Shown here piece after piece: positions 3,192 to 63,214 of a stretch of DNA of 64,000 bases. Positions within the stretch are counted from its first letter, which is position 1. Each line of letters starts with the position of its first letter. Position numbers and translations under genes: made by a program. The stretch is from Candidatus Portnoybacteria bacterium (GTDB lineage Bacteria > Patescibacteriota > Minisyncoccia > Portnoybacterales > GWB1-42-6), in the NCBI GenBank assembly GCA_028688325.1, contig JAQTYI010000002.1:161284-225283 (forward strand), in the 5' to 3' direction. The notes beneath the pieces are model-generated. The model did not search any database. It had not been told where the DNA came from and saw only the letters and a list, made by a program, of their open reading frames with translations.

Positions 3192-3582
3192 AAGCCCCGT
3201 AGGCGATGAAATTCCATATCGCTATCAGCGCGGCCGCGAAAACTTGCGCCAACAGATACCAAATGCCGAAAATATCCACCAAAAGGTACATCAGGCCCGT
3301 ATTGGCCGTTAAGCTTATCAAAGCGACCAAGAGATAAACGGCCATCTGTTTTTTCATCATTCCCCGGCTCTTGTCCTGAAAGGTCCATAATTTCTGCAGA
3401 AAAAAACTGACGAAAAAGGCCACGACAAAAGACGCGGCGGCCGAAAACAGATACCAGACCCCCAACCAGTCGGTAAAAACAAAAAGCAGCGCCAAGTTAA
3501 CGCCGGTGGCGGTGCCGCCGGCGATCAGATATCTTAATATTTTTTTTCTTTTGGCCAGTTGTTCCTTCAAAAAATCCATCAT
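3148..3582 (-). CDS. GtrA-family membrane protein (polysaccharide synthesis/translocation accessory)
   Basis: 144 aa, 4 predicted TM helices; N-terminal motif LRYLIAGGTATGVNLALLFVFTDWLG characteristic of GtrA-like proteins. Overlaps the downstream GT by 44 nt. Confidence 0.7.
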   Translation of the reverse strand: MMDFLKEQLAKRKKILRYLIAGGTATGVNLALLFVFTDWLGVWYLFSAAASFVVAFFVSFFLQKLWTFQDKSRGMMKKQMAVYLLVALISLTANTGLMYLLVDIFGIWYLLAQVFAAALIAIWNFIAYGAFVFKPKEMVYDRQT

Positions 3583-4739
3583 AAAGTTAACTGTGTGAAT
3601 GTTTCTTTCATCTGCGCGGCGATTTTATTCCAGCTGTATTGTTCCTGAACCAGCACTCTGCCGTTGATGATGAGCTTGGAATGCAAGGCGTGGTCGGCCA
3701 GCAATAGATTTATTTTTTCCGCTATGCTTTGGGAGTCCGAAACCTCGCAAAAAAGACCGGTTGGCGCTTGCCCCGAGTTTACCGAGGGATCGCGTAAAAA
3801 ATCCGGTATGCCGCCGACTTTTGTGCCGATTATCGGCACGCCCGCGGCCATGGCTTCCAAAAAAACATTGCCCAGCCCCTCGGCCAGCGACGGCCGGACA
3901 AATACATCGGCAATCGCCAAAAATTGCGGCACTTTATCGTGGGGCACATCGCCTAAAAATAATACCCTGTCGTTTAATCCCGAATTTTTAACCCGCGCCT
4001 TTAATTCCCGTTCCAGCGAACCGCTTCCCAAAATCAACAATTTAACCTCGGCCGGCAAATGCGACATCGCTTTGATCAGGTCGGCAATGCCATTTTTTTC
4101 CACCAGGCGCGAAACCGTGACAATAACTTTTTCTTGAATGGTTATACCCAGGCGCGATCTTAATTCCTGCTTGTTGCCGCCCGGCGTCTGAAATTTATTT
4201 ATATCCACGCCGTTCGGTACGATGGCTATTTGGCTTTTGGCGCCGTGCGCCAGCGCGAATTCCTTGAGATACCGGCTGATAGCCGTGATGAGATCGGCGC
4301 TAACGAACATTTTTTTATAATACGGCCCGAGCCATAAAGCGCGGGAAGCGATATGTTCGGGAGTGTCTCCTTCCTGCAAGGTTAAAACATACGGCACGCT
4401 CTTTAACTTATTTTTAAAAAATAGCGCGGCCAAACCGCCAAAAGACGCCATGATGGCCCAAGCGATATCGTACGGCTCCTGCCGGTGCAATTTTTCGGCC
4501 AGCGCCGCTCCGCGCCAAGGCAATAAAAATTTATCCAGTTTTCCCCAACCCCAACCCGCGCGATAGACATTAATTTTGCCCACTTTCTCCTGCTTGGGCA
4601 AATTCCTTTTTATCCGCGCGCAGATGAGGTCAAAAACAAAATCGCCGCCGAGCCGATCGGTAATTTCTTTAACCGCTATCTCAGCGCCCCCTATTAAAGG
4701 CAGATAAGCAGTGGAAAATATTAAAATTCTCTTTATCAT
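3579..4739 (-). CDS. Glycosyltransferase family 4
   Basis: 386 aa; GT4 Rossmann folds, C-terminal EAMAAGVPIIGTKVGGIPDFL motif; 4-nt overlap with the GtrA gene. Confidence 0.85.
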   Translation of the reverse strand: MIKRILIFSTAYLPLIGGAEIAVKEITDRLGGDFVFDLICARIKRNLPKQEKVGKINVYRAGWGWGKLDKFLLPWRGAALAEKLHRQEPYDIAWAIMASFGGLAALFFKNKLKSVPYVLTLQEGDTPEHIASRALWLGPYYKKMFVSADLITAISRYLKEFALAHGAKSQIAIVPNGVDINKFQTPGGNKQELRSRLGITIQEKVIVTVSRLVEKNGIADLIKAMSHLPAEVKLLILGSGSLERELKARVKNSGLNDRVLFLGDVPHDKVPQFLAIADVFVRPSLAEGLGNVFLEAMAAGVPIIGTKVGGIPDFLRDPSVNSGQAPTGLFCEVSDSQSIAEKINLLLADHALHSKLIINGRVLVQEQYSWNKIAAQMKETFTQLTL

Positions 4740-6895: not shown

Positions 6896-7100
6896 TGCGT
6901 AAAATCCTCTATATCATCACTCAATCGGAGCCGGGACGGCGCGTCGCCCCGCTAAAGCGGGACTCCCTAAAACCCCTCGGTTTTAGTATTTCCGCCAAGG
7001 GGGCGCTTCGCTCCCCCGCCACCCCCTCTGCGCGTCGCCAAAACAACTGATATCGCTTCACTCATATGAAAAAAATCATCTATATCATCACTCAATCGGA
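6896..7100 (+). other. Duplicated gene start (imperfect ~32-bp direct repeat) separated by a GC-rich ~130-bp insert; first copy gives a 25-codon truncated ORF
   Basis: atgcgtaaaatcctctatatcatcactcaatcggagc (6896-6932) vs atgaaaaaaatcatctatatcatcactcaatcggagc (7066-7102): MRKILYIITQSE / MKKIIYIITQSE. Intervening 6934-7065 is GC-rich (cgggacggcgcgtcgccccgctaaagcggg...gcgcgtcgccaaaac) unlike its surroundings. Confidence 0.6.
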
Positions 7101-8229
7101 GCTCGGCGGCGCGCAGGAAAATGTGCTTGATTTGGCCGCGGGACTGAGGGAAAAATACGATGTTTTGGTGGCGGCCGGGCCGGACGGCGGCGGCAAGCTT
7201 TTTAAGCAACTGGCCGACAATAAGATCAGCTTCCAGGAACTCAAGTGGCTCCGCCGCAGCGCGGCCAATCCATTTGCCGACATCGCGGGGCTGGTTGAAA
7301 TTTTCTCACTCTTGCTCAAGGAGCGCCCCGATGTTATCCATCTGCACAGCTCCAAAGCGGGCTTTTTGGGCTCGCTGGCCGGCAAGCTCGCCGGCGTCAA
7401 AGTTGTTTATACTGTCCATGGCGCGGTTTTTGAAGCGTCCTTTTCCGGGCTCGCCAGAAAATTTTTCCTGTATCTGGAAAAATTCAGCGCCCCGTTTAAA
7501 GATAAAATCATCTGCGTTTCTGCCAACGATAAAAAGCTTTGGCTAAAATACAATGCCGCTCCGGAAACCAAGTTGGCGATAGTTTACAACGGCATCGACC
7601 TTAAAACGGCTTTTTTACCCAAAGCAGAGGCGAAAGAATATCTGGCCAGCCAAAGCGCCAACTTTTTTGAAGCACTGCGCGGCTCAAACGAAAAATTAAG
7701 AATCGTCGGCACGGTTGCCAATTTCTTTCCGGAGAAGGGGTTGCCTTATCTTATCGAAGCAGCCGATGTCCTTATCAATAAAAAACAAATAAAAAATATT
7801 ATTTTTGCGATAATGGGCGAAGGGCCCCAGCGACTTCTGCTTAAAGAGATGCTGGAAGAGCGCGGATTAGCTGATAAGTTCATACTGCTTGGAACGGTTG
7901 CCAATCCTTTTAAATATTTAAAGGCCTTCGATGTTTTCACGCAACCGTCAACAAAAGAAGGATTGCCCTACGCCATTTTATGGGCCATGGCCGCGGAATT
8001 GCCGATTGTCGCCTCGCATGTCGGCGGCATTCCCGAAATGGTGAAAAACGGCGATAACGGCTTCTTGATTTTCCCGCGCGATACCGATACATTGGCCGAA
8101 AAGATCCTTGAGTTGCTGAGCAATCACGCGCTAAGCCAAAAATTCACCTTCAACTCCCGGCAAAAGATCAGGGAATTTTCCCTGGATAAAATGATAGCGG
8201 CCACGGAAAAGATATATCTGGAAAAATAA
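7066..8229 (+). CDS. Glycosyltransferase family 4
   Basis: 387 aa; GT4 motifs (EGLPYAILWAMAAELPIVASHVGGIPEMV). One of only three plus-strand genes in the window. Confidence 0.85.
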   Translation: MKKIIYIITQSELGGAQENVLDLAAGLREKYDVLVAAGPDGGGKLFKQLADNKISFQELKWLRRSAANPFADIAGLVEIFSLLLKERPDVIHLHSSKAGFLGSLAGKLAGVKVVYTVHGAVFEASFSGLARKFFLYLEKFSAPFKDKIICVSANDKKLWLKYNAAPETKLAIVYNGIDLKTAFLPKAEAKEYLASQSANFFEALRGSNEKLRIVGTVANFFPEKGLPYLIEAADVLINKKQIKNIIFAIMGEGPQRLLLKEMLEERGLADKFILLGTVANPFKYLKAFDVFTQPSTKEGLPYAILWAMAAELPIVASHVGGIPEMVKNGDNGFLIFPRDTDTLAEKILELLSNHALSQKFTFNSRQKIREFSLDKMIAATEKIYLEK

Positions 8230-38989: not shown

Positions 38990-39027
38990 TTGTCATCCCG
39001 GGCTTGACCCGGGATCCAGGCCCTCCC
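38990..39027. mobile_element. Palindromic element copy (left half)
   Basis: ttgtcatcccgggcttgacccgggatccaggccctcc. Confidence 0.6.
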
Positions 39028-43088: not shown

Positions 43089-43107
43089 AAAAATTAACTT
43101 TTGATTT

Positions 43108-43258
43108 CTCCGCCCATACGAAAAATTTTGTTATAAATTCGCGATGAGCCAAGCGTCTAAAATTGCCAGTGGGACGAGGGAGCGGAGCGAACCGAGTTGT
43201 CCGCGGCAATTTTAGCGAGGCGAATCCGAATTTATCAAAATTTTATCGTCGGGCGGCG
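43108..43258 (-). repeat. ~151-bp element, copy 1 (100% identical to 44050-44200), just upstream of ftsX; contains promoter-like hexamers and a 9-bp-stem hairpin
   Basis: tctccgcccatacgaaaaattttgttataaattcgcgatgagccaagcgtctaaaattgccagtgggacgagggagcggagcgaaccgagttgtccgcggcaattttagcgaggcgaatccgaatttatcaaaattttatcgtcgggcgg. In minus orientation it reads TTGATA-N18-TAAAAT then the aaaattgcc...ggcaatttt hairpin, ending ~20 nt before the ftsX ATG. Confidence 0.75.
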
Positions 43259-43303: not shown

Positions 43304-43335
43304 TTCTGGATCCCGGGTCAAGCCCGGGATGACAA
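43304..43335. mobile_element. Palindromic element copy (right half)
   Basis: tctggatcccgggtcaagcccgggatgacaattgg. Confidence 0.6.
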
Positions 43336-43349
43336 TTGGTGTTATTATT

Positions 43350-44027
43350 TTATAATATATACCGTCCATTCGCTTCATCCCTTATCACCCTTCCTTTATC
43401 CAAGGTTATCACGCGCCGGCCCAGGTTATTTATTATTTCGCGGTCGTGCGTGGCCAGAATTATCGTCGTGCCAAGCTCATTTATCTTTTGCAGCAAACGA
43501 ACGATATCCCAGGAATTGAGCAAATCCAGATTTCCCGTGGGCTCATCGGCTAAAATAACGGACGGACGATGAATGAGCGCGCGAGCAATGGCCACGCGTT
43601 GTTTTTCGCCGCCGGAAAGCTGATGCGGAAATTGATTTAATTTATCCACCAATCCCACCAGCTCCAAAAGCTGGGGCACATCCTGTTTTATCTCCTTGTC
43701 CGTGGCGCCAGCCACTTCCATGGCGAAAGCTACATTCTCATAAGCCGTCCTGTCCGAAAGCAAACGAAAATCCTGAAACACCATGCCGATCTTGCGGCGC
43801 AATTTCGGCATATCTTTTTCCTTCACCAAGTGGATATTCTGTTTATCTAAAAAAAGTTTGCCTTTGCTCGGCTTTTCTTCGCCGATAAGCAATTTAAGCA
43901 AGGTTGATTTACCCGCGCCAGACGGCCCGGCCAAAGAAACGAATTCTTTGGCTTTAATCGTCAAATCGATGTTATTTAACGCAGTGCAGCCGTCGTAAAT
44001 TTTGGAGATTTTTTGGAAAACTATCAT
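43350..44027 (-). CDS. ftsE: Cell-division ATP-binding protein FtsE
   Basis: 225 aa; Walker A GPSGAGKST, signature LSGGEKQRVAIARAL, Walker B ILADEPTGNLD. Confidence 0.9.
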   Translation of the reverse strand: MIVFQKISKIYDGCTALNNIDLTIKAKEFVSLAGPSGAGKSTLLKLLIGEEKPSKGKLFLDKQNIHLVKEKDMPKLRRKIGMVFQDFRLLSDRTAYENVAFAMEVAGATDKEIKQDVPQLLELVGLVDKLNQFPHQLSGGEKQRVAIARALIHRPSVILADEPTGNLDLLNSWDIVRLLQKINELGTTIILATHDREIINNLGRRVITLDKGRVIRDEANGRYIL

Positions 44028-44049
44028 GTATATCTAATTATACCTCATT

Positions 44050-44200
44050 TTCTCCGCCCATACGAAAAATTTTGTTATAAATTCGCGATGAGCCAAGCGT
44101 CTAAAATTGCCAGTGGGACGAGGGAGCGGAGCGAACCGAGTTGTCCGCGGCAATTTTAGCGAGGCGAATCCGAATTTATCAAAATTTTATCGTCGGGCGG
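44050..44200 (-). repeat. ~151-bp element, copy 2 (identical to 43108-43258), just upstream of ftsE
   Basis: Identical over the full length; ends ~22 nt before the ftsE ATG. Confidence 0.75.
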
Positions 44201-44245: not shown

Positions 44246-45353
44246 TTATTTTAATCTAATCTCTGAATCTATAAATTCATCTAATTTCCCATCCAGCACT
44301 TCATCCGGCTCCTTTGATTCTACGCCCGTGCGCAGGTCTTTGACAAGTTTATAGGGATGCAAAACATAATTTCGTATCTGGCCGCCCCACTCCGCCGTGC
44401 CTTCCCCGCTTTGAATGCCCGAACGCAAGCCCGCAATTTCCTTCTCTTTCTTTTGGATTTCCAGCAGATACAGCTTACTCACCAGAATTTTCATCGCCTG
44501 CTCTTTGTTGGCGCTTTGCGAGCGCTCGCTTTGGGCCGCCACGGCAATGCCGGTGGGAATATGCGTTATGCGCACCGCGGTTTCCACCTTGTTCACATTC
44601 TGCCCACCCGGGCCCGAAGAGCGAAAAGTGTCTATTCGCAACTCTTCCGGTTTTATCTGCACATCGGCCGCGCCTTCCATTTCCGGCATCACCTCAACCA
44701 GCGCGAAAGAGGTATGGCGCAAATTGTTAGCGTTGAACGGCGATAAGCGCACCAGCCGGTGCACACCGCTCTCGTTTTTTAAAAATCCGTAGGCATACGG
44801 GGCGCGAAATTCCAGTGTGGCATTTTTTATGCCCGCTTCTTGGCCTTCGTGGATATGCAAAGTTTTGACATTGAACCCGGCGCGTTCGCCGTATCGCTGA
44901 TACATCCTTAGCAGCATCTGCGCCCAGTCCTGCGCTTCTGTTCCGCCCGCGCCACTATAAATAGACAATATCGCGTTGTTTCTGGCGTACGGAAAAGCGA
45001 AAAAAGTTTTTTTCTCTTCCTGCGCGACAATTTTTTCCAGATCCCCAAATTCTTTGGCCAGTTTTTTGGTTTTTGTTTCGTCTTCTTCGCCCTGATATTC
45101 CGCCACTTCCATTGCCAGCAATTGTGCGGCAGTTTCGATTTCTTCCCACTTGGCGTGATTTTCTTTAAGCTCCGCCAATTCCTGGCTTAACTTACCCGCC
45201 CGCTCGTGATCCTGCCAAAAATTGACATCTTCCATCTGCTTTTCTATTCCCGCAATCTTGTGTTTTTGCGCGACCAAGTCAAAGGCAGTCCTTGATCTTT
45301 TGGATCCGGTCGGTTAATGCCTCCAATTGTTTTTTGAAATTGATGGTTTCCAT
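44246..45353 (-). CDS. prfB: Peptide chain release factor 2, with programmed +1 ribosomal frameshift site
   Basis: Main frame 343 aa with the RF2-specific SPF motif and GGQ (SGPGGQNVNK). Upstream ORF0 METINFKKQLEALTDRIQKIKDCL ends in CTT TGA C (stop at 45279-45281), preceded by an AAGGA SD-like element; +1 shift joins it to ...DLVAQKHKIAGIEKQ... Confidence 0.85.
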
Positions 45354-45480
45354 AATTTTAAAAAATATGCCCTGAGCAAGTGAAGCGAGTCGAAGGGCTA
45401 TCTTCTGCTTCACCCCGTCAAATTTTACGCGGAGCCGATGGTCGGAATTGAACCGTGGCTGAAGTTTATCCCGCACCTTT

Positions 45481-46018: not shown

Positions 46019-46060
46019 TTATAAATACTACAGTATACTAGTATACTGTAGTATTTATAA
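46019..46060. promoter_or_regulatory. 42-bp perfect AT-rich palindrome upstream of tRNA-Gly / downstream of ftsB
   Basis: ttataaatactacagtatactagtatactgtagtatttataa (centre actagt). Confidence 0.5.
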
Positions 46061-46695: not shown

Positions 46696-46793
46696 TTGTC
46701 ATCCCGAACGCAGTGAGGGATCTCTCGCGTATGCGAGATTGTTGCGCGGGTCGCTTCGCTCCCGCGAGATCCCTCGTTTCACTCAGGATGACA
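46696..46793. mobile_element. Second palindromic element family (TTGTCATCC(C/T)GAACG.AGTGAGGGATC...GATCCCTCGTTTCACTCAGGATGACA), full copy
   Basis: ttgtcatcccgaacgcagtgagggatctctcgcgtatgcgagattgttgcgcgggtcgcttcgctcccgcgagatccctcgtttcactcaggatgacatt; perfect long terminal inverted repeats. Confidence 0.7.
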
Positions 46794-46808: not shown

Positions 46809-48605
46809 TCACTTTTTCAGCACCTTCAAAAACACTTCCTGCGGAATATTGACGCTTCCGCGGTCGCGCATTTTCTTTTTCCCTTTCTTCTGCTTATCCA
46901 ATAATTTATTTTTTCGCGTCACATCTCCGCCGTAAAGTTTGGCCGTAACATCTTTGCGCCGGGCGGCTAAGTCCTCGCGCGCCACGATCTTTCCGCCAAC
47001 CGCCGCCTGCAAGGCCACCGCAAACATCTGCGGCGGCAATATCTCTTTTAGCTTCTCAACGATAGCTCGGCCTTCGCCTGCGGCCTTGTGGCGCGGAATT
47101 ATGCGCGCGAACGCCTCAATGGGATCTTGCGCCACCAGAATATCCAAGCGCACCAAGTCATCCTTGCGCCAGCCCAAAAGCTCATAACCCATAGAAGCAT
47201 AGCCAGAAGTGGCGCTTTTTAATTTGTCATAAAAATCTACGATGATCTCCCGCAGCGGCGCCTCATAGGAAATCACCACGCGCTGCGCGCCAAGATACTG
47301 CGTGTCCAGATAAGCGCCACCGGTCGATTGCAACAACTTCATAATAACCCCCAGATATTCGCTGGGCCCGATTACTTCCAATTTGACCCAGGGCTCGCGA
47401 ATTTCGTCGATGACGCTGGGGTCGGGCAGCTTTTGCGGAGAATAAATAACAAGCTCCTCCCTGTTCTTTTTTTTCACCCGATAGACCACGCTGGGCGTTG
47501 TCACGATCAGATCCAGATTATATTCCCGGCGCAGGCGTTCGGAAACTATTTCCAAATGCAGCATGCCCAAAAATCCGCACTTAAATCCCCGTCCCAAAGC
47601 ATCGGAACTTTCTGGCTCAAAGACCAGTGCCGCGTCGCTCAGTTTCAGCTTGGACAGCGCGTCGCGAAGCTGGTTGTAATCCTGCGCCTCCTGCTTTTCC
47701 AGCACCGCCGGGTAAAAACTGGCAAAGACCATCGGCTTTGGTTCTTTGTATCCGGGCAGCTGTTCAACATCGAAAGAGCCGGTAACGGTCATTGTATCGC
47801 CAACGCGGCATAGCGCCACCTCTTTGAGGCCTGTGGCTATATATCCTATTTCGCCGGCGCGCAATTCCTCTGCCGCCTTTAACGCTGGCGTGAAAATGCC
47901 GACTTCTATCGCCTCAACTTTCGCACCGCTGGCCATAAACATTATTTTATCTCCGCGTTTGATCCGGCCGTCGACTATCCGGACATATGCTAAAACACCC
48001 TTATAAGCGTCGTAATTGGAATCAAAAACCAAGGCGCGAAAAGGCCTATCCGCATCGATCTTGGGCGGCGCCACTTTTTTTATCACCGTCTGCAGCAATT
48101 CTTCAACACCAACGCCTTCCTTGCCGGAAATTTTGTAAATTTGTGCGTTTTGGCCCAGCAGTTCTTTTATCTCGTCTTCCACCATCTCAACCCGCGCTCC
48201 CGGCAAATCAATTTTATTTATCGCCGGCACAATGGTTAAGCCCTGCTGCTGCGCCAGATACAGGTTTGCCAGGGTTTGCGCCTGCACACCCTTGGTCGCA
48301 TCCACCAGCAAAATAGCGCCTTCAACCGCGGCCAGAGAACGGGAAACCTCGTAAGAAAAATCCACATGCCCGGGAGTATCTATGAGATTGAGCATATAAT
48401 CCCGCCCTTCAAAGCGATAACTCATTCGCACCGGTTGGAGCTTGATGGTGATGCCGCGTTCCCGCTCCAGTTCCATGGTATCCAAAAATTGCTCCTTCAT
48501 CTTCCTTTTTTCGATGGTGCCGGTCAATTCCAAAAAACGGTCCGCCAAAGTGGATTTGCCATGGTCAATATGAGCTACGATGCAGAAGTTCCTGATGTTA
48601 TTCAT
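46809..48605 (-). CDS. lepA: Translation elongation factor 4 (LepA)
   Basis: 598 aa; N-terminus MNNIRNFCIVAHIDHGKSTLADRFLELTG, GTPase G-motifs, LepA-specific C-terminal domain. Confidence 0.95.
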   Translation of the reverse strand: MNNIRNFCIVAHIDHGKSTLADRFLELTGTIEKRKMKEQFLDTMELERERGITIKLQPVRMSYRFEGRDYMLNLIDTPGHVDFSYEVSRSLAAVEGAILLVDATKGVQAQTLANLYLAQQQGLTIVPAINKIDLPGARVEMVEDEIKELLGQNAQIYKISGKEGVGVEELLQTVIKKVAPPKIDADRPFRALVFDSNYDAYKGVLAYVRIVDGRIKRGDKIMFMASGAKVEAIEVGIFTPALKAAEELRAGEIGYIATGLKEVALCRVGDTMTVTGSFDVEQLPGYKEPKPMVFASFYPAVLEKQEAQDYNQLRDALSKLKLSDAALVFEPESSDALGRGFKCGFLGMLHLEIVSERLRREYNLDLIVTTPSVVYRVKKKNREELVIYSPQKLPDPSVIDEIREPWVKLEVIGPSEYLGVIMKLLQSTGGAYLDTQYLGAQRVVISYEAPLREIIVDFYDKLKSATSGYASMGYELLGWRKDDLVRLDILVAQDPIEAFARIIPRHKAAGEGRAIVEKLKEILPPQMFAVALQAAVGGKIVAREDLAARRKDVTAKLYGGDVTRKNKLLDKQKKGKKKMRDRGSVNIPQEVFLKVLKK

Positions 48606-48614
48606 TTTATTTCT

Positions 48615-48710
48615 TTACCCTGAGCTTGTCGAAGGGCTGATATTTTCCATTTTATCTTTACCCCGAGCGATTTATCCCGATAAGAATTGAGGGAAGTCGA
48701 GGGGCATAAA
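48615..48710. repeat. Third repeat family (CCCTGAGC..GTCGAAGGGC / GGGATAAATCGCTCGGG modules), intergenic copy
   Basis: ctttaccctgagcttgtcgaagggctg...cccgagcgatttatcccgataagaattgagggaagtcgagggg; reverse-complement match to 50790-50870 inside murJ; related module at 45340-45410. Confidence 0.55.
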
Positions 48711-48767: not shown

Positions 48768-49385
48768 TTAAATCAGGCCATCGAATTTATCATAAAAATC
48801 CCTGGCCGCTTGGACGATTTTTTCATCGCCCCGCATTTTCGCGACGAAAAGATTAACCTGGTCGATAAAATCAAAATCAAATCCGCCATCCACTAGAACC
48901 AGCGCGCGGGTCTTGTCGCTGGGCCTTTCAATAAAATATTTTTGCAAAAATCCGTGCCAGCGAACAATGTCTTTTTCGGGCAGGCCGAATTTCTTTTCTC
49001 CTTCCAAAACGCCGTCAAAAAATCCCGCCAATTCAGTCCAGCCACTGAACCGGTCATACAGCAATTCGTCCTGTAAAAATTTCAAAGAAACGCTCAAAAC
49101 ATGATGCGGCTCGATATAGAAAGGATGGTCTTTAAGCAAGCGATAAAAATTTCCCCACCTTTCATCCAGCAAAGAATGGAAATGCGCACCCGCGAAAAAA
49201 GAGTCCTCTTTGGCTATTTCTTCGATGCTCTTGCCGTCCTGATGGGTTTTCTCTCTGTCCAAGTTATCGTAATACCGGATATCGGGAAAACTTGTGCCGA
49301 CAAAAAATTCCTTCCGGTCTTTGCCGGAAAAATATTTGTCAAAAACTTTATTGGCCAAAACAATATGAGTGATGGGAGCGGCCAT
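48768..49385 (-). CDS. Hypothetical protein (possible metal-dependent hydrolase)
   Basis: 205 aa; no signal peptide; His-rich segments (ITHIVLANKVF; FFAGAHFHSLLDE) loosely resemble the N-terminal domain of the 1217-aa protein at 59476-63129; no confident family. Confidence 0.35.
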   Translation of the reverse strand: MAAPITHIVLANKVFDKYFSGKDRKEFFVGTSFPDIRYYDNLDREKTHQDGKSIEEIAKEDSFFAGAHFHSLLDERWGNFYRLLKDHPFYIEPHHVLSVSLKFLQDELLYDRFSGWTELAGFFDGVLEGEKKFGLPEKDIVRWHGFLQKYFIERPSDKTRALVLVDGGFDFDFIDQVNLFVAKMRGDEKIVQAARDFYDKFDGLI

Positions 49386-49388
49386 AAT

Positions 49389-51128
49389 TTAATCCTGGAT
49401 TATTTCTTTATCGGACGCCACTTGCTTGAACGGCAAGCGATTCTTCATGGCTTGCCAGAAAATCTGCATCTCGGGCGAGCGCAACAAGAGTCCCGCCAGA
49501 AAATAAATTATCAAGCCGGCTATCCCGGCAATGAACCCCTGCGCCAACAGCCCCAAAAGGGTGCGGGTATCAACAAATTTATCCATGAACAACAAAACCC
49601 GCCAGGCAACGACTCCCGTCAAAATAGACGCCGACAATATTTTTACTCCGCTGGCAAAAATTTCACCAAACAGCAAGCTGCTTACGCCGCTTTTTCCCGA
49701 ATCAGCGGGAAAGGCCCGGCCGGTTTTTCGCTCCAAAGACAGCCACAACAATACCATATTCAAAATGCCACCGAGCGCATAACCCAACGCTAACCCCGCC
49801 ACGCCCAACGAGAAAGAAAAATACCACGCCAAACCGATGCGCACGAAAGAGCTTAAAAATCCCAGCCAGAAAGGCGTCTTGGTGTCTTCCAGCGCAAAAA
49901 ATCCCCGCACCAGCAGCAAATTCAGCGCTTCGGCAAAAAGCCCGACGACTAAAAACTCCAGAGTGTTGATGGCCGAAATCGTGTTGGCCCAACTGAATCG
50001 GCCCGTACCTAAAATAACGCGGACAATTTGCGCGCGCAAAACGATGAATAACGCGCTGGCCGGAATTATCAAAAAAAGTATCTGCCGAAAAGTGCTGGAA
50101 AGTGTTTTGGCAAAAGCATTCTTATCCCCCGCCTTGGCGTCTCCGGCTAGCGCCGGAAAAGCCGCCATAGCGAGCGATCCAGCCAAGATTCCCAGGGGAA
50201 AGCTGTAAATATTGTAAGACAGGTCGAATATCGCCAAACTTCCGGCCGCCAGAGTTGAAGCCAAAATCGTTATCGCCAAAAAATTTATCTGCGCCACCGC
50301 CAAAGTCAAAATGCGCGGCACGGTCAATTTAGCCATACGCCTGGCCGCGCTGTCGGCCCAGTTGAATATCGGCCGGTATTTATAGCCCAAAGACAAAATT
50401 GACGGGATTTGAATCGCCATGTGCAAAAACGCTCCCAAAACAACGCCCCAAGCCAGGCCGTAGATGCCAAAACGCGGCACCAAAAATAGAATGCCGAAAA
50501 TTATGCCCAGATTATAAAATATGGGCGTCAAAGAAAATATCAGAAATTTTTTCACGCCCTGCAAGATTCCACCCCAAATGGAACTGGCGCCCAGCAATAT
50601 GGGGCTTAAAAACATTACTCGCGTCAGCGCAACCGTCAAATTCATTTTATCCGTGCCAAATCCCGGCGTGATAAGTTTTACAAAAAACGGCGCGAAGATA
50701 AAAAACACGGCGGCCACGACCATGAGGCCCAGGCCCAGAATATTCAAAACATTATTCACAAAATCCCAAACTTCCCGGCGGTTTTTAGACCCCTCGACTT
50801 CCCTCGCCTCAGCTCGGGATAAATCGCTCGGGGAATAATTATTATTGCCTAAGCTTGTCGAAGGCCTGTTCCACAACCCGATGAACACCGGAATAAACCC
50901 CGCCGAAAGCGCGCCCAGAACCAGCAAGTTATAAACCGTGTCGGGAATGCGGAAAGCCGCGTAATAAACATCCAGGGTATCGCCGGCGCCAAATTGCCCG
51001 GCCAGGAGCCGATCGCGCAACAAACCCAAAAAACGGCTGGCCAGAGAAGCCAGCGCCAAAACCAAAGCCGCGCTCGTTATGCTGCGCGATTGGCCGTTGA
51101 AAATTTTATCGGTCAAGAATTTAAACAT
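49389..51128 (-). CDS. murJ: Lipid II flippase MurJ (MviN family), carrying an in-frame repeat-element insertion
   Basis: 579 aa; MurJ N-terminus (SAALVLALASLASRFLGLLRDRLLAGQFGAGDTLDVYYAAFRIPD), ~14 TM. Segment ...RPSTSLGNNNYSPSDLSRAEAREVEGSKN... (50790-50870) is the translated third-family repeat. Confidence 0.85.
   Translation of the reverse strand: MFKFLTDKIFNGQSRSITSAALVLALASLASRFLGLLRDRLLAGQFGAGDTLDVYYAAFRIPDTVYNLLVLGALSAGFIPVFIGLWNRPSTSLGNNNYSPSDLSRAEAREVEGSKNRREVWDFVNNVLNILGLGLMVVAAVFFIFAPFFVKLITPGFGTDKMNLTVALTRVMFLSPILLGASSIWGGILQGVKKFLIFSLTPIFYNLGIIFGILFLVPRFGIYGLAWGVVLGAFLHMAIQIPSILSLGYKYRPIFNWADSAARRMAKLTVPRILTLAVAQINFLAITILASTLAAGSLAIFDLSYNIYSFPLGILAGSLAMAAFPALAGDAKAGDKNAFAKTLSSTFRQILFLIIPASALFIVLRAQIVRVILGTGRFSWANTISAINTLEFLVVGLFAEALNLLLVRGFFALEDTKTPFWLGFLSSFVRIGLAWYFSFSLGVAGLALGYALGGILNMVLLWLSLERKTGRAFPADSGKSGVSSLLFGEIFASGVKILSASILTGVVAWRVLLFMDKFVDTRTLLGLLAQGFIAGIAGLIIYFLAGLLLRSPEMQIFWQAMKNRLPFKQVASDKEIIQD
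50790..50870. mobile_element. Third-family repeat copy inserted in-frame in murJ
   Basis: cccctcgacttccctcgcctcagctcgggataaatcgctcggggaataattattattgcctaagcttgtcgaaggcctg; reverse complement of the 48615-48710 module. Confidence 0.6.
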
Positions 51129-51147: not shown

Positions 51148-51211
51148 TTGTCATCCTGAACGAAGTGAGGGATCTTTTATTTTTAGATTCTTCGCTTCGC
51201 TCAGAATGACA
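51148..51211. mobile_element. Second-family palindromic element, short copy
   Basis: ttgtcatcctgaacgaagtgagggatcttttatttttagattcttcgcttcgctcagaatgacaaa. Confidence 0.65.
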
Positions 51212-59309: not shown

Positions 59310-59475
59310 GACTCTATTTATAATTATAATAATAGACCCGCCCCATACCTGAATTATACACAAAACCGGCAAAAATCAAAGCCCGCCGGCATCGCGCCAA
59401 ACGGGCCTTGGTAGCAGATAAATAAAACACAAACATCCTTACATACTTGAGAATGTAAGGATGTTTGTGTTTTAT

Positions 59476-62400
59476 TTATTCCACTGTCACATTTTCTTGC
59501 GTTACTGTCGCGCCGTCTTTAATGTCCAAAATTGGCCCATTATAATATAAATAGCTAGTCGTGTCGCGGCTGTATCCGCCATACTTGAATTTAATAAATT
59601 TCAAAGTTGCCTGGCTGCCGCCGGCAAATATAATATTTCTCCATTCGCCCCTTGCAAGATTCGGCTCGCTGACCAGACCGTCGTTGTTGGTGTCACCGCC
59701 TGAAGAATCATCCTTAAAAGATGTAAAAATAATTAAGGTGGAAGACGACTGGCCGTCAGCTACCAAATTTCCGTCAATTTTCAAGGATGGATAAAGCGGG
59801 CAGGCCGCCTTAATCACTGCACCCGGCTCAATGGTCAAAGTGGAACTGGCGGTTACTGTTGGATATTGTGTCCCGATATCAGACCGCAGAATGTAGACAA
59901 TTTCTCGCTGCCAAGTCGTATTTTTTGATAAAACCGTGCGCTCGCTGACATTAACGCCGTTGAAAGAGTTGTTAATCAAATTGTTGCCGGAAAAAACCGG
60001 ATAGGCGCTTTCCAGCCAAACAGCGAATTGAAAACCGGAAATATCATTTGACTCGATCGCCGGCCGGTTTTGATTTTCAATCCTTATCGCCGTGCCGGTA
60101 TTTGCCGAGTTTCTGAAGGTATTGTTTTTAACGATTGGTGCAGACGAGCCAGTAAGATATAAAGCGGTGTCGTTATCCAAAAATTGGGAATCGGACAAAG
60201 TCAAATCGGAGCCGGTTAGCTCCAGGCCGCGGCCTTGAATATTGCGGAAAATGCAGTTATTAATATCTACTTTGGCGCCGTTAACCGCAACCGCCGGAAA
60301 ATTATTGTTGAACGGCGATCGGTACCCGCCGTATTCAAAAGTTACAAAAGACAGCTCGGAATTCAAGGAATCAGGTGCAAAATACAATCCCGTTCCCCAG
60401 TCGCCCGCTTGCGGCGCGACGCTGTTTGAGGTGAATAAAATCGGATTACCGCTCGTGCCTACGGCTTTTACGGCCCCCTTAACATATAAGGAATAAAGGG
60501 TCGCGCTTAATGGCTTTATTGTCGCGCCGGGCTCAATGGTTAAAGTGGCGCCCGCCGACACCATGGGAGATGCCTCATTGGAAGAATATAAAACATAAGG
60601 AGAACCCGCCTTGCCCCAAACGGTATTTTTGGAAATAATCGTATTGTCTCTTACCATGCTGCCGGCGGAAACATTTAGAGCATCGTTTTGGGCATTCGGA
60701 GTGCCGCCGGCAGCCGAAGTGCCCCAGGCCAAAATAAAATCGGAATAAACGCTATTATAATTTATCCTTTCCAAGGAATTGCCATTATCATTGGTGCTCC
60801 TCCAGCTATTTGAATAATTAACTCTGTCAACTATGCTGCCGGCGGCGTTTTTTAGAATTAAATCGTTGCTTAAATTAGTCAAAGATAATGAAGCGGCGCC
60901 ATTTAGAGTTAAGCGAAGATGAGCTTGATCGGACGATGGGATTGCATAATAAGCACCGTCGTAAATTGATGGCGTGGAAGTGCTTTCTGTTCTGTCCGCC
61001 AATAACGCAAAACCGCCAGAAGCAATGACCGTTGAAGAACCGTTATGAATCGTATCGGCGATGACAACATGTTCGCGGCCGTCGGAAACAAATTTCCAGT
61101 TAGCCAAATCTATCGCTATCGGGGAACGATTGTACAGCTCGACATATTCGTAATAGCTGTCCGACCCGGGATTGGGGTCATACATTATCTCGTTAAAAAT
61201 TATCGGTTTTATCGAAACCGGCGCCTGAATTTCTTGCCAAACGCTCGCTTGGCCGGCTGAGTCAACCGCCCGGGCGCGGAAATAATAAACGATATTGTCG
61301 AGATTTGACTGAAAAGATTTTGAAGTGGTGATTGTGGCCATGGCCCAGCTCTGCCAGGCACCCTGTTCGCCTATTTTATATTGCACATCATAATAGCCGA
61401 TATCCGTTGATGAACTGCTCCAGTTTACAGTAAAATCTATATTCATCAGATCATAGCCGGAAAGATCAATGGTTGCTTCCGGCGCAAAATCAATTCTCCA
61501 AGAATATTCGGTTGAAGTGGCGTTGCGGTTGCCGGCCGCGTCCGCGGCTCCAACCTTAAAAGCATGGCTGCCTTCGGCCAAATTGATATATTCTTGCGGC
61601 GAGGAACAATCGGTTGAGCTCGCGTTATCCAACTGGCAGGAAAAAGTTGAATCGCTTTCCGAGGAATTGAATTCAAAAATCGCCGTTGTTGTAGATGCTA
61701 TGCTTTCCGGCTTAACCGTAATCATTGTTTCCGGCGCCGTAGTATCCGGCGTTGAAGTTGCGGTTGAAGTGGCTGTCGGCGACGAAGATAGTGTTGACGA
61801 AAAATTGGACCCGCCGCCGGAAACAGCAACGGAAGGACTCGGATCCGGCATTTGCGCCCGGCTTGGAACCATTTCTTCGATGATCGCAGACGGAATTTCG
61901 CTGTCCTGAGGCGTTGTTTCTTCAATTATCCCCCCTTCTGCTTTTTCCTGCGCCGCAACAGCGCTTGGCGGCAATTGCGCCGCAGCTTTTTCTTCGGCCA
62001 CAATCGTGTTTAACGGCAAAGACGCGGCCGGCGGCAACGATTCCGGCAATACCGGCAATACTGAATTTTTCGGCGCCTCGCCATCCCCGCCAACAGGCGG
62101 GGCCGCGCTCGGCGCCGCATCCACTATAACCCCAGCATACAGCGGCCCGACCTTTGTCAATGACTGATTGGCTTTGTCTTTTAATTTTTGCCACCAGCTT
62201 TTATTATCATATTCCCGCTTGGTCTTTTCCGCTTCATCAAAAAATAATTTCACCGCCCCCGCGCCATAAGATACGGCTTTGGGAGCAAGAAGAGAAAAAT
62301 AGTCGGAGTGGACAGATATTGTATTTGATAAATCCATTAAGTAATGGGTATCACCAAATTTAGATTTTTTATATATTACTAAACAAATTCTATTATCTCC

Positions 62401-63129
62401 AATCTCCTTCTCTATGCATTCATAATTTACACCGTCTTTTATCTTTTCGACTTTTTTTAAACCCAATAAGTAATTTTCCCTAATTGTGTCTCTACTCAAA
62501 AAATTATTACTTGAATAACTCGCCAAATCATCAAAAGCCATATTAATATCACTAATCACTACAGGTACCACATTAAAATTTATGGACGAGCTAATTTTGT
62601 CAACCGCCCATTTTTCATAAGGATCTCCCTCCGGATGCGCGTCCAATCGCGTATGTGCCGGCACAGTTGCATCTTCCAATAAATGTACCACATGTCCAAG
62701 CGCGAAAAATGCTTCTTGGTTATTGCCTTTTACATAGCTATCAATCGCCTTCTGCCAGGTCTGGTTTCCCCCGCTGAGTATAAAAGACGATAACGCTTGG
62801 TAATTAGGGCTTTTCGCCCAATTCTTGGAGTTCATCATACTGCCAAGGCCCATATCGCTTTCCGGATTATAAAAATGATTCAGCCAGCGCGGCGCTAAAT
62901 CTTCTTTTATGCTCCCTTGTTTTAACCATTCTATTTCTTCATTGCTCAATTTGCGGTCAAAATTGGCATTATAAATTTTAGCTACATTATCCGTTAAAGA
63001 CGGGTGCGTAATATCATCATTATACGAAAAAGCTCGGTTGCAAAACGCAACCGAGCCGGCAAATATTGTCGTTAAAATTAATAGAGCTAAAACTTCCTTT
63101 TTATTCGAGACCATCACCCTTGATGTCAT
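59476..63129 (-). CDS. Giant secreted multidomain protein: N-terminal zinc-dependent phospholipase C-like domain, Pro-rich linker, FN3/Ig-like region, lamin-tail domain (LTD) and C-terminal right-handed beta-helix repeats
   Basis: 1217 aa; signal peptide; HVVHLLEDATVPAHTR (PLC-like Zn-site); IIFNEIMYDPNPGSDSYYEYVELYN (LTD signature); repeated NNxF/N-rich parallel beta-helix turns (NNTFRNSANTGTAIRIENQ, SGNNLINNSFNGVNV). Confidence 0.7.
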   Translation of the reverse strand: MTSRVMVSNKKEVLALLILTTIFAGSVAFCNRAFSYNDDITHPSLTDNVAKIYNANFDRKLSNEEIEWLKQGSIKEDLAPRWLNHFYNPESDMGLGSMMNSKNWAKSPNYQALSSFILSGGNQTWQKAIDSYVKGNNQEAFFALGHVVHLLEDATVPAHTRLDAHPEGDPYEKWAVDKISSSINFNVVPVVISDINMAFDDLASYSSNNFLSRDTIRENYLLGLKKVEKIKDGVNYECIEKEIGDNRICLVIYKKSKFGDTHYLMDLSNTISVHSDYFSLLAPKAVSYGAGAVKLFFDEAEKTKREYDNKSWWQKLKDKANQSLTKVGPLYAGVIVDAAPSAAPPVGGDGEAPKNSVLPVLPESLPPAASLPLNTIVAEEKAAAQLPPSAVAAQEKAEGGIIEETTPQDSEIPSAIIEEMVPSRAQMPDPSPSVAVSGGGSNFSSTLSSSPTATSTATSTPDTTAPETMITVKPESIASTTTAIFEFNSSESDSTFSCQLDNASSTDCSSPQEYINLAEGSHAFKVGAADAAGNRNATSTEYSWRIDFAPEATIDLSGYDLMNIDFTVNWSSSSTDIGYYDVQYKIGEQGAWQSWAMATITTSKSFQSNLDNIVYYFRARAVDSAGQASVWQEIQAPVSIKPIIFNEIMYDPNPGSDSYYEYVELYNRSPIAIDLANWKFVSDGREHVVIADTIHNGSSTVIASGGFALLADRTESTSTPSIYDGAYYAIPSSDQAHLRLTLNGAASLSLTNLSNDLILKNAAGSIVDRVNYSNSWRSTNDNGNSLERINYNSVYSDFILAWGTSAAGGTPNAQNDALNVSAGSMVRDNTIISKNTVWGKAGSPYVLYSSNEASPMVSAGATLTIEPGATIKPLSATLYSLYVKGAVKAVGTSGNPILFTSNSVAPQAGDWGTGLYFAPDSLNSELSFVTFEYGGYRSPFNNNFPAVAVNGAKVDINNCIFRNIQGRGLELTGSDLTLSDSQFLDNDTALYLTGSSAPIVKNNTFRNSANTGTAIRIENQNRPAIESNDISGFQFAVWLESAYPVFSGNNLINNSFNGVNVSERTVLSKNTTWQREIVYILRSDIGTQYPTVTASSTLTIEPGAVIKAACPLYPSLKIDGNLVADGQSSSTLIIFTSFKDDSSGGDTNNDGLVSEPNLARGEWRNIIFAGGSQATLKFIKFKYGGYSRDTTSYLYYNGPILDIKDGATVTQENVTVE

Positions 63130-63214
63130 CCCGGGCTTGACCCGGGATCCATGCTCTGGATTCCCGCTTTCGCTCGCCTCGCTGGAGCTTCGGCGAAGCG
63201 GGCGGGAATGACAA
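63124..63214. mobile_element. Palindromic element, longest copy (first family)
   Basis: tgtcatcccgggcttgacccgggatccatgctctggattcccgctttcgctcgcctcgctggagcttcggcgaagcgggcgggaatgacaaa. Confidence 0.7.

What the first reader, a model, noticed from the sequence alone, without database searches (positions are those of the whole stretch)
50790..50870. A different repeat family inserted in-frame in the essential flippase gene murJ, with a sister copy 2 kb away
Seen in sequence: the MurJ ORF contains a segment (protein ...RPSTSLGNNNYSPSDLSRAEAREVEGSKN...) whose DNA (cccctcgacttccctcgcctcagctcgggataaatcgctcgggg...cctaagcttgtcgaaggcctg) is the reverse complement of the intergenic module at 48615-48710. 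A related module precedes prfB (45340-45410). Inference: the insertion falls after the tenth-plus helix region of an otherwise canonical MurJ, so a repeat element is being exapted or tolerated in an essential membrane protein.
Basis: partly seen in the sequence, partly recalled or inferred. Interest (0 to 1): 0.55.

Follow-up and report, generated by a model that had tools for sequence, protein, structure and literature searches.

The report
In-frame hairpin repeat inside murJ
The lipid II flippase gene murJ of this Candidatus Portnoybacteria genome carries a 75-base in-frame insert made of a small hairpin repeat. The same repeat sits mostly inside protein-coding genes, many of them housekeeping genes, in many candidate-phyla-radiation (CPR) bacteria, much like the "selfish DNA in genes" known from Rickettsia.

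Summary
The repeat is real and is a lineage-specific insertion. murJ (49389-51128, minus strand) carries 75 extra in-frame bases (50790-50864, residues P89-G113) that are absent from its closest orthologs (76-83% identity).

The insert is composite:
- a degenerate 21-nt single hairpin ("A");
- a 14-nt AT-rich spacer;
- a 44-nt nested double hairpin ("B").

B recurs inverted at 48661-48704. A recurs in the same orientation at 48619-48639, so the murJ segment is not a simple reverse complement of the intergenic module. The insert lies in the TM2-TM3 loop, not after helix 10.

B is a sharply bounded unit found in over 100 unrelated loci:
- 67 of 94 distinct copies lie inside ORFs of at least 150 aa, such as GyrB, DnaX, MurC, MnmA, aminoacyl-tRNA synthetases and LepA;
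- the same DNA is read in at least four different frames;
- the only two base pairs free to vary in the search both covary.

B does not match the published Ssn-related-motif consensus. Hairpins of this architecture nevertheless sit directly upstream of small single-domain GIY-YIG genes in seven loci. This suggests an Ssn-like nuclease partner, which is not shown.

Verdict: a tolerated, translated passenger, and a new variant of known kinds (RPE-like, SRM-like).

The parts
49389..51128 (-). murJ ORF, 579 aa, host gene of the insert
   Evidence: ORF list. Matches MurJ structures at E 1e-38. Exact match to an NCBI Candidatus Portnoybacteria MurJ, P0001. AlphaFold2 model: pLDDT 80, pTM 0.78.
50790..50864 (-). 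75-nt (25-codon) in-frame insert, residues P89-G113, in the TM2-TM3 loop
   Evidence: Absent from P0002-P0007 and most other orthologs. pLDDT below 50 for residues 90-113, between helices 50-87 and 102-144. The PDB alignment breaks between query residues 87 and 118.
50790..50833 (-). Module B: 44-nt nested double hairpin YCCCGAGCGAYYYRTCCCGA-N8-GAGGGAAGTCGAGGGR, translated here as SPSDLSRAEAREVEG
   Evidence: Covariance model R1 scores 67.4 bits, E 2e-16, over 50786-50837. Exact 20-mer and 16-mer are shared with 48661-48704.
50834..50847 (-). AT-rich 14-nt spacer (CAATAATAATTATT on the coding strand; N N N Y), origin unknown
   Evidence: Sequence reading. No counterpart in the orthologs.
50848..50868 (+). 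Module A, a degenerate single hairpin (CCTAAGCTTGTCGAAGGCCTG), in the same orientation as the copy at 48619
   Evidence: 2 mismatches to 48619-48639, against 0.00 expected. Only 8.6 bits with R1 because the stem is mutated.
48661..48704 (+). Intergenic copy of module B, between ORF 48768..49385 and the lepA start at 48605
   Evidence: R1 scores 65.7 bits over 48657-48708. An independent metagenome contig, L115, covers it at 99.7% identity.
48618..48639 (+). Intergenic copy of module A (CCCTGAGCTTGTCGAAGGG), about 15 nt upstream of the lepA ATG
   Evidence: An A module follows the same upstream sequence (ATGGAAAATATCA) in relative L001, where it holds a nested insert of another repeat family.
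45370..45397 (+). A-type hairpin with a longer loop (CCCTGAG-CAAGTGAAGCGAGT-CGAAGGG), between a tRNA gene and prfB
   Evidence: R1 scores 19.9 bits, E 0.003.
3771..3788 (+). Minimal 18-nt hairpin of the same architecture (CCCCGAG-TTTAC-CGAGGG) inside a glycosyltransferase ORF; possible third in-frame copy
   Evidence: R1 scores 15.3 bits. It lies in ORF 3579..4739(-) as DPSVNSG. The paralog 7066..8229 is shorter at this point.

Best explanation
The murJ segment is a recent, lineage-specific, frame-preserving insertion. It is made of members of a family of small hairpin DNA repeats that is widespread in CPR (Patescibacteria).

**The repeat unit**
- The basic unit is a hairpin YCCC-GA-G...C-GA-GGGR: a C/G stem, a tandem G.A/A.G step and a closing pair.
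- Module A is one such hairpin.
- Module B is two of them nested, 44 nt long. With its conserved 4-nt 5' flank YYTR it measures 48 nt, which is 16 codons.

**Why it persists in genes**
- The unit is a multiple of three long.
- It is free of stop codons in five or six frames.
- It codes for hydrophilic, low-complexity peptides.
- It can therefore survive inside genes wherever it lands in a permissive surface loop.

**In murJ**
- It is translated as 25 extra, probably disordered residues in the TM2-TM3 loop. That loop is cytoplasmic by the established MurJ topology, which has its N-terminus inside the cell.
- It is a tolerated passenger.

**What is shown and what is inferred**
- Shown: it is an insertion; it belongs to this family; its copies are mostly genic and are read in several frames; the base pairs that could vary covary.
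- Inferred: it spreads as single-stranded DNA through a hairpin-specific enzyme acting in trans. The best candidate is a single-domain GIY-YIG nuclease of about 90 aa, of the Ssn type, whose genes carry hairpins of this architecture directly upstream.
For: **Insertion**
- The five closest orthologs (76-78% identity by BLASTP; 80-83% in the alignment) are 539-543 aa long against 579 and lack the segment.
- The repeat matches are far beyond chance.

**Family**
- An exact 19-mer scan found 15 loci in Paceibacteria, Saccharibacteria, Berkelbacteria and other CPR genomes.
- A second pattern found 100 metagenome loci, the cap of the tool.
- The unit has sharp ends, unrelated flanks and a variable loop.

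**Genic, in-frame copies**
- 67 of 94 distinct copies lie in ORFs of at least 150 aa.
- In most of the 30 host ORFs scanned, Pfam domains were found. In at least twelve the domain match runs across the unit: DnaX, a histidine kinase, MurC, TypA, transketolase, two MnmA, AlaRS, MYG1, a pyridine nucleotide-disulphide oxidoreductase, PheRS alpha and beta, and DUF72. In GyrB, ComEC and CTP synthase the unit lies between or at the edge of matched domains.
- Alignments to solved superoxide dismutase (SOD) and transketolase structures show a 14-residue gap exactly at the unit.
- At least four frames are used in Pfam-verified hosts. In the census all six have at least one genic copy: 35, 12, 10, 6, 3 and 1.
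- One gene occurs with 1, 2 or 3 tandem 48-nt units.

**Structure**
- The only two pairs free to vary both covary. The terminal pair is CG 49, UA 24, UG 11, other 2. The loop-closing pair is GC 68, CG 6, AU 4, GU 3, other 5. None of 500 shuffles reached the observed score.

**Permissive loop in MurJ**
- Residues 90-113 have low confidence in an otherwise confident model.
- MurJ of three other lineages carries different palindromic elements in the same loop.

**Nuclease lead**
- A hairpin of this architecture lies directly upstream of a small GIY-YIG gene of about 75-95 aa, on the same strand, in L033, L056 and L111. It lies 10-15 nt upstream in all four further loci reached by protein homology. 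A TATAAT-like box follows the hairpin in most of these loci.
- The published Ssn family consists of such single-domain GIY-YIG nucleases, which cut ssDNA next to dispersed hairpin repeats (PMC11893778).
Against: - Nearest-neighbour energies do not mark the fold as unusually stable. RNA z-scores are -1.5 and -1.0. DNA z-scores are about 0.
- The covariation could partly reflect subfamilies rather than independent events.
- No target-site duplication or empty site could be defined, because the murJ loop is too variable.
- The window holds no GIY-YIG gene, and its genome was not available for a full census.
- The unit does not match the published SRM consensus.
- No transposase family is among the 25 most frequent Pfam families in neighbours of non-genic copies.
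- No expression or peptide data were available, so translation of the insert is inferred from the intact frame alone.
- Copies at the same site in diverged MnmA and GyrB genes are more conserved than synonymous sites. This could mean the unit has a function of its own rather than being a passenger.
Confidence: 0.72

Rival explanations
1. The insert is an adaptive, protein-level extension of the MurJ loop, for example a docking or regulatory segment. The DNA repeat is only its vehicle (true exaptation).
For: - 35 of 67 genic copies use one frame, read as PSTSLxxxRDKSLG. This shows selection acting at the peptide level.
- The MurJ TM2-TM3 loop is extended in several lineages.
- Copies at the same site in MnmA and GyrB are retained across diverged lineages.
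Against: - murJ uses a minority frame (SPSDLSR..REVEG).
- The same DNA gives unrelated peptides in other hosts.
- The other MurJ lineages carry unrelated sequences in the loop.
- The five closest orthologs do without the segment.
- The segment is predicted to be disordered.
Confidence: 0.1
2. The unit is a cis-acting nucleic-acid signal with a host function. It could be a mark for an Ssn-like ssDNA nuclease that restricts or modulates incoming or replicating single-stranded DNA. It would then be kept in genes by selection rather than spreading selfishly.
For: - In same-site copies the unit is far more conserved than synonymous sites. In MnmA, codon identity at conserved residues is 11/12 to 12/12 within the unit against 35-42% elsewhere. 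In GyrB it is 11/14 against 50%.
- The tandem G.A steps are never repaired to Watson-Crick pairs.
- In Neisseria, NTS repeats together with SsnA modulate transformation (PMC11893778).
Against: - Independent insertion into the same permissive loop explains the same-site data equally well, and MurJ shows exactly such a hot spot.
- Copy number varies between related strains.
- Close orthologs lack the unit.
- No nuclease gene lies in the window.
Confidence: 0.15
3. The segment is not translated. It would be removed from the mRNA or bypassed by the ribosome, as with the 50-nt gap of T4 gene 60 or the mitochondrial 'byp' elements.
For: - The unit is about 50 nt long, can form a hairpin, and sits inside essential genes.
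Against: - Every genic copy keeps the host frame open and is a multiple of three long, with tandem periods of 48 or 51 nt.
- The one frame that holds a TAA in the ATTTAT variant has only one genic copy, and that copy is a variant of the unit without the stop.
- A spliced or bypassed element would be under no such constraint.
Confidence: 0.03
4. The resemblance arises locally, by gene conversion or duplication between murJ and the lepA upstream region, or is an assembly artefact. No mobile family would be involved.
For: - The two copies lie only 2 kb apart.
- The lepA upstream region shows tandem duplication of its flanks (D13).
Against: - More than 100 unrelated loci from independent assemblies carry the same unit.
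- The two window copies differ at 6 of the 8 loop positions.
- A and B have different relative orientations at the two loci.
- The intergenic copy is confirmed in an independent contig.
Confidence: 0.02

Closest known systems
Rickettsia palindromic elements (RPE; Ogata et al. 2000, as summarised in PMC10969869)
   Same: - Palindromic repeats inserted in frame into many unrelated genes, including essential ones.
- They are translated as extra peptide segments in positions compatible with the fold.
- They also occur between genes.
- No enzyme is known for them.
   Different: - RPEs are about 100-150 bp long and are confined to one genus of Alphaproteobacteria.
- This unit is 44-48 nt, a nested double hairpin with tandem G.A steps and a variable loop.
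- It is nearly identical across class-level CPR lineages.
- It is read in at least four frames and forms in-frame tandem arrays.
- There is no sequence similarity to RPEs. This last statement rests on my own knowledge and was not tested here.
Ssn-related motifs (NTS/SRM) and Ssn single-domain GIY-YIG ssDNA nucleases (Chenal et al. 2025, PMC11893778)
   Same: - Dispersed, directional hairpin repeats of 20-50 nt with a conserved 5' flank.
- They lie next to, and flank, a GIY-YIG-only gene of about 90 aa.
- The window also carries six canonical SRM matches, which belong to another repeat family.
   Different: - The B and A modules do not match the published SRM consensus.
- 71% of copies are inside genes, against 2% for NTS in N. 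meningitidis.
- CPR are not mentioned in the main text of that paper.
- Nuclease activity, and membership of the CPR protein in the cd10448 family, are untested. The best PDB hits are UPF0213 proteins at E 2e-7.
REP/REPIN elements with RAYT transposases, and BIMEs
   Same: - Short imperfect hairpins with a conserved 5' tetranucleotide.
- They occur singly, as inverted pairs and in clusters.
- They are thought to be moved as ssDNA by an enzyme acting in trans (PMC3116915 and PMC3337134, listed; otherwise my own knowledge).
   Different: - REPs are extragenic almost by definition.
- No Y1/RAYT family is among the 25 most frequent Pfam families in the neighbours.
- The associated gene here is a GIY-YIG gene.
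Mitochondrial hairpin elements: sponge repetitive hairpin-forming elements (PMC2800124, listed), and fungal GC clusters and double-hairpin elements (own knowledge)
   Same: - Small mobile hairpins.
- Some of them sit in frame in protein genes.
   Different: - They occur in organelle genomes and have unrelated sequences.
- No comparison was run.

Membership tests
RPE-type in-frame selfish palindromic DNA (a functional class, not a sequence family) | Repeat present in many copies, both inside unrelated ORFs and between genes | tested here: met
   More than 100 loci carry the unit. 67 of 94 distinct copies are in ORFs of at least 150 aa and 27 are not.
RPE-type in-frame selfish palindromic DNA (a functional class, not a sequence family) | Insertion preserves the host reading frame and is absent from orthologs | tested here: met
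   In murJ the insert is 75 nt and is absent from the 14 of 17 aligned orthologs that have a short loop. Solved SOD and transketolase relatives show a 14-residue gap at the unit. Pfam domain matches run across the unit.
RPE-type in-frame selfish palindromic DNA (a functional class, not a sequence family) | Insert lies in a position compatible with the protein fold | tested here: met
   In MurJ it lies in the TM2-TM3 loop, with pLDDT below 50 only in the insert. In SOD the gap falls within a short segment of the solved relative; that this is a beta-hairpin turn is my reading.
RPE-type in-frame selfish palindromic DNA (a functional class, not a sequence family) | Sequence homology to one of the described RPE families | not tested
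   No RPE sequences were at hand. Size, taxon and consensus differ, so homology is not claimed.
Ssn-related motif (SRM) with Ssn nuclease | Match to the published consensus HGTCWY N0-2 YYVSBRH N0-5 WNVSBRG N0-2 RNCYNB | tested here: not met
   There are no matches in modules B or A, or in the seven GIY-YIG loci examined. Six matches in the window belong to a different repeat family.
Ssn-related motif (SRM) with Ssn nuclease | Hairpin repeats flank a single-domain GIY-YIG gene of about 90 aa | tested here: met
   L033, L056 and L111 show this. So do all four further loci reached by protein homology. L133 has hairpins on both sides of the gene. This is not seen in the window itself.
Ssn-related motif (SRM) with Ssn nuclease | The GIY-YIG protein belongs to the Ssn clade (CDD cd10448) | not testable with these tools
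   Only Pfam GIY-YIG (PF01541) matches. No NCBIfam family matches. The best PDB hits are UPF0213 proteins at E 2e-7.
Ssn-related motif (SRM) with Ssn nuclease | Strand-specific ssDNA binding and cleavage next to the hairpin | not testable with these tools
   This needs biochemistry. Indirect hints only: the terminal pair tolerates T.G (11 copies) far more often than other mismatches (2 copies), and the 5' flank is conserved.
MITE (miniature inverted-repeat transposable element) | Terminal inverted repeats with target-site duplications, and a related autonomous IS | tested here: inconclusive
   The ends pair with each other. No duplication of flanks is seen at solo copies. No transposase is among the 25 most frequent neighbour families.
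Known RNA families (Rfam 15) | Score at or above a family's gathering threshold | tested here: not met
   Only tRNAs pass the threshold in the window. Nothing overlaps the repeats even at E up to 5.

The most novel reading that the evidence does not exclude
The CCCGAG...CGAGGG hairpins are the cognate single-stranded-DNA sites of a CPR-specific branch of Ssn-like GIY-YIG nucleases. The small cassette "hairpin, promoter, GIY-YIG", seen inserted at tmRNA 3' ends, would be the autonomous partner. Its hairpins have colonised the interior of essential genes across the radiation. They are kept there by constraint at the nucleotide level, not only by tolerance. Core CPR proteins would then carry nuclease recognition sites written into their coding sequence.
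Probability: 0.25. Interest if true: 0.8.

Novelty: new variant of a known kind. Interest (0 to 1): 0.62.

Why it matters
**For genome biology**
- In-frame "selfish DNA in genes" has so far been a curiosity known mainly from Rickettsia.
- Here a much smaller element does the same across a large part of the bacterial tree. It sits in GyrB, DnaX, aminoacyl-tRNA synthetases, MurC, MurJ and LepA.
- This affects how CPR proteins are aligned, modelled and placed in phylogenies, because 16-residue blocks of non-homologous origin lie in conserved cores.
- It offers a natural map of permissive loops in essential proteins.

**For the Ssn field**
- It gives a testable pairing of enzyme and substrate that differs from the published motif.
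- Its genomic lifestyle is opposite: mostly intragenic here, almost never intragenic for NTS.

**For murJ**
- The TM2-TM3 loop accepts at least four unrelated insertions of 25 or more residues.

Tried and rejected
**Searches that found nothing**
- Rfam, at gathering threshold and at E up to 5, found nothing at the repeats.
- Literature searches for the encoded peptides (PELVEG, LSLSKG, RDKSLG and others), and for CPR together with in-frame repeats, found nothing relevant.
- blastn of the consensus against the phage and plasmid collections gave no match.
- The viral contig scan gave one locus only.
- The window's own genome is not among the GTDB representative genomes, so no whole-genome census was possible.
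- MurJ protein P0001 is not on record in the contig index, so the insert itself has no independent assembly check. The intergenic copy does have one.
- No supplementary files are held for the Ssn paper.
- The second MurJ insert has no other copy in the window.

**Tests that gave no support**
- Thermodynamic folding gave no support for an unusually stable structure. The structure rests on covariation alone.
- A target-site duplication at the murJ insert could not be assessed, because the orthologous loop is not alignable at the DNA level.
- A transposase near non-genic copies was looked for through pooled Pfam scans of 94 neighbouring ORFs. No IS family was among the 25 most frequent.

**Readings rejected**
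- Protein-motif homology. The same DNA is read in several frames.
- Excision or ribosomal bypass. The frame and stop-codon constraints are respected.
- Local duplication only. The unit is distributed far too widely.
Full report
**1. What is in the window**

murJ is the 579-aa ORF on the minus strand, 49389-51128. It matches solved MurJ structures at E 1e-38. It is identical to an NCBI protein from a Candidatus Portnoybacteria MAG whose longest contig is 788,852 bp.

The finding's interval, 50790-50870, holds two repeat modules.
- **Module B** (50790-50833). With its flanks it forms a 50-nt inverted repeat with 48661-48710, 84% complementary. Its 20-mer and 16-mer arms occur exactly twice in the window, against 0.01 and 0.05 expected.
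- **Module A** (50848-50868). It matches 48619-48639 with two mismatches, against 0.00 expected. It lies in the same orientation at both loci.

The murJ segment is therefore not a plain reverse complement of the intergenic block, because the two modules are arranged differently. A third A-type copy lies before prfB at 45370-45397. The two B copies differ at 6 of the 8 loop positions. They are not recent copies of each other.

**2. It is an insertion, and where it sits**

The five closest orthologs are 76-78% identical by BLASTP, or 80-83% in the alignment. They are 539-543 aa long. Like most other relatives, they lack residues P89-G113. The DNA alignment shows 75 extra in-frame bases.

It is in fact after TM2.
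- The PDB alignment runs over query residues 24-87 and resumes at 118. These align to residues 10-73 and 81 onward of 7WAW.
- An AlphaFold2 model (pLDDT 80, pTM 0.78) is confident except at the termini, residues 90-113 and residues 477-480. The insert lies between helices 50-87 and 102-144.
- By the established MurJ topology, with the N-terminus inside the cell, this loop is cytoplasmic.

Other MurJ lineages carry different hairpin elements in this same loop.
- P0022 has CCTCTCCTCAACTGAGGAGAGG followed by an A-type hairpin, CCCTGAGCGAAGTCGAAGGG.
- P0048 has a GTCATCC...GGATC element.
- P0075 has a palindrome of about 100 nt that folds at -68.8 kcal/mol.

The loop is a repeatedly used permissive site.

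**3. What the repeat is**

An exact 19-mer from B found 15 loci in the one-genome-per-species collection. Fourteen are in Patescibacteria of several classes and one is in a MAG labelled Proteobacteria. A pattern built on the other half of the unit returned 100 metagenome loci, the cap of the tool.

The unit has sharp ends and unrelated flanks: YCCCGAGCGAYYYRTCCCGA-N8-GAGGGAAGTCGAGGGR. It is usually preceded by YYTR, which makes 48 nt.

It reads as two nested copies of one motif: a CCC/GGG stem, a tandem G.A/A.G step and a closing pair. Module A is a single copy of that motif. Covariance model R1, built from 86 distinct copies, recovers A-type hairpins as matches to the outer stem only.

The search pattern fixed most of the 3' half, so only two pairs were free to vary. 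Both covary.

| Pair | Counts |
|---|---|
| Terminal | CG 49, UA 24, UG 11, other 2 |
| Loop-closing | GC 68, CG 6, AU 4, GU 3, other 5 |

None of 500 shuffles reached the observed covariation.

Against this, nearest-neighbour energies do not exceed those of shuffled sequences. Part of the covariation may also reflect subfamilies. Rfam has no match.

**4. Most copies are inside genes and are read through**

- 67 of 94 distinct copies lie within ORFs of at least 150 aa.
- Pfam was run on 30 host ORFs. In at least twelve the domain match runs across the unit: DnaX, a histidine kinase, MurC, TypA, transketolase, MnmA (twice), AlaRS, MYG1, a pyridine nucleotide-disulphide oxidoreductase, PheRS alpha and beta, and DUF72. 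In LepA and a class I aminoacyl-tRNA synthetase the matched domain is split into two stretches. In GyrB, ComEC and CTP synthase the unit lies between or at the edge of matched domains.
- Against solved SOD and transketolase structures the unit appears as a clean 14-residue gap.

Frame use among the genic copies:

| Orientation | Peptide read | Copies |
|---|---|---|
| Antisense | PSTSLxxxRDKSLG | 35 |
| Sense (as in murJ) | PSDLSRxxxREVEG | 12 |
| Sense | PERLVPSxxEGSRG | 10 |
| Sense | PRATCPExxRGKSR | 6 |
| Antisense | PRLPSxxLGTSRSG | 3 |
| Antisense | SLDFP... | 1 |

- At least four of these frames are confirmed by Pfam domains in the host.
- The 44-mer is open in five or six frames in 83 of 94 copies.
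- The frame that holds a TAA in the ATTTAT variant has only one genic copy, and that copy is a variant without the stop.
- Tandem arrays have periods of 48 or 51 nt. One gene occurs with one, two or three units, giving 327, 343 and 359 aa.

Together these points argue for translation through the unit and against excision or bypass. They also argue that the conserved entity is DNA, not a peptide. The skew towards one frame still shows that peptide-level selection filters which insertions survive.

**5. Passenger or functional element**

Same-site copies are more conserved than their hosts.
- In GyrB of two lineages (78% aa identity), 11 of 14 codons at conserved residues are identical within the unit, against 258 of 518 elsewhere.
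- In MnmA of three lineages (47-51% aa identity), the values are 11/12 to 12/12 within the unit, against 35-42% elsewhere.

This fits any of three readings: repeated recent insertion into one permissive loop, as MurJ demonstrates; constraint at the nucleotide level; or homogenisation between copies. I cannot separate these.

**6. A candidate partner**

- Among Pfam families of ORFs neighbouring non-genic copies, GIY-YIG is one of the three most frequent. No transposase family appears among the 25 most frequent.
- In L033/L081/L109, L056 and L111/L117 the unit lies directly upstream of a GIY-YIG-only gene of about 75-95 aa, on the same strand.
- I retrieved homologs of that protein. Most of them sit on very short contigs.
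- All four independent loci examined have an R1-type hairpin 10-15 nt before the ATG. A TATAAT-like box follows the hairpin in most of the seven loci.
- Several cassettes follow smpB and the tmRNA 3' end. In L111 and L133 they are bracketed by repeats of that 3' end.

This architecture matches the recently described Ssn family. Those are single-domain GIY-YIG nucleases that bind dispersed hairpin repeats (NTS/SRM) and cut single-stranded DNA just upstream of them. Their genes are typically flanked by those repeats (PMC11893778).

- The published SRM consensus matches six sites of another repeat family in this window, against 0.3 expected.
- It matches none of the B or A modules, and none of the hairpins at the CPR GIY-YIG genes.
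- Whether the CPR protein belongs to the Ssn clade (cd10448) could not be tested. The best solved relatives are UPF0213 proteins at E 2e-7.
- The window encodes no such gene.

**7. Comparison and novelty**

In behaviour this is closest to Rickettsia palindromic elements, which are in-frame insertions in many genes (PMC10969869). In architecture and gene association it is closest to the Ssn/SRM system.

It differs from RPEs in size, structure, breadth across taxa and multi-frame use. It differs from NTS in sequence and in being 71% intragenic against 2%. I found no description of it in the searchable literature. The main text of the Ssn paper does not mention CPR or intragenic copies.

I rate it a new variant of known kinds.

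**8. Verdict on the finding**

- The in-frame insertion reading is right.
- The helix placement and the "reverse complement of the whole module" are wrong.
- "Tolerated" is better supported than "exapted".

Noticed in passing
window 11899-11927(+), 11932-11959(-), 17238-17264(-), 38991-39019(+), 43306-43334(-), 63124-63152(+): Six matches to the published Ssn-related-motif consensus (TGTCATCCCGGG...CCCGGGATCCAG family), against 0.3 expected from shuffles. The genome therefore also carries canonical SRM-type hairpins, distinct from the family in murJ.
   Followed up: partly
window 46696-46723(+), 46767-46793(-), 51148-51175(+): A third hairpin family, TTGTCATCCTGAACGAAGTGAGGGATCT. One copy lies 20 nt upstream of the murJ start codon. 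A relative of this family forms the in-frame insert in the MurJ loop of ortholog P0048 (L121).
   Followed up: partly
window 49680-49724 (-): A second lineage-specific in-frame insert in MurJ, GRAFPADSGKSGVSS. It is built on the hairpin TTTCCCGctgattCGGGAAA, is unique in the window, and includes a short stretch (477-480) with pLDDT below 50. Ortholog P0008 has a different insert at the same point.
   Followed up: partly
window 3771-3788 (+), inside ORF 3579..4739 (-): An 18-nt minimal hairpin, CCCCGAG-TTTAC-CGAGGG, read as DPSVNSG inside a GT4 glycosyltransferase. The paralog at 7066..8229 is about 6 residues shorter at this point.
   Followed up: partly
window 43105-43256 and 44049-44200: A perfect 152-nt direct repeat that flanks the 225-aa ORF 43350..44027 (-), next to an SRM hairpin. 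It may mark a small duplicated or mobile cassette.
   Followed up: no
window 45277-45355 (-): prfB appears to use the classical programmed +1 frameshift. A short upstream ORF ends in ...KDCL followed by a stop, with CTT TGA C in the DNA. The A-type hairpin lies about 18 nt upstream of the likely prfB ATG.
   Followed up: no
L001 8300-8480 (syntenic relative), compared with window 48600-48660: Upstream of lepA the relative keeps a remnant of an older lepA 5' end (MENNIRNFCIVAH), followed by another hairpin and a new start. Its A module carries a nested CGCTTCGCC...GGCGAGCG element, a family that also occurs in the window at 28493, 29497 and 63171. In the window, B and A sit in tandemly duplicated flanks.
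   Followed up: partly
L056 1277-1481 (-): The ribosomal protein L19 ORF runs without a stop through four tandem 51-nt units into a GIY-YIG ORF. L061 and L077 carry related arrays. L064 has two units 55 nt apart that are read in two different frames within one ORF.
   Followed up: partly
L111 and L133 (GIY-YIG cassettes): The small cassettes (hairpin, promoter, GIY-YIG) sit at the 3' end of the tmRNA gene. They are bracketed by direct repeats of that end (CCGCCCATCTCCAC, or ATCTCCAC plus a CCAC...GTGG hairpin), like an integrated mobile element that lacks an integrase.
   Followed up: partly
L122 4232-6052: A diversity-generating retroelement (bAvd plus reverse transcriptase) lies immediately upstream of murJ in the P0022 lineage.
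   Followed up: no
window 46019-46060 and 59418-59479: Two long AT-rich perfect or near-perfect palindromes in intergenic DNA: 21-nt arms with no spacer, and 30-nt arms at 97% complementarity.
   Followed up: no
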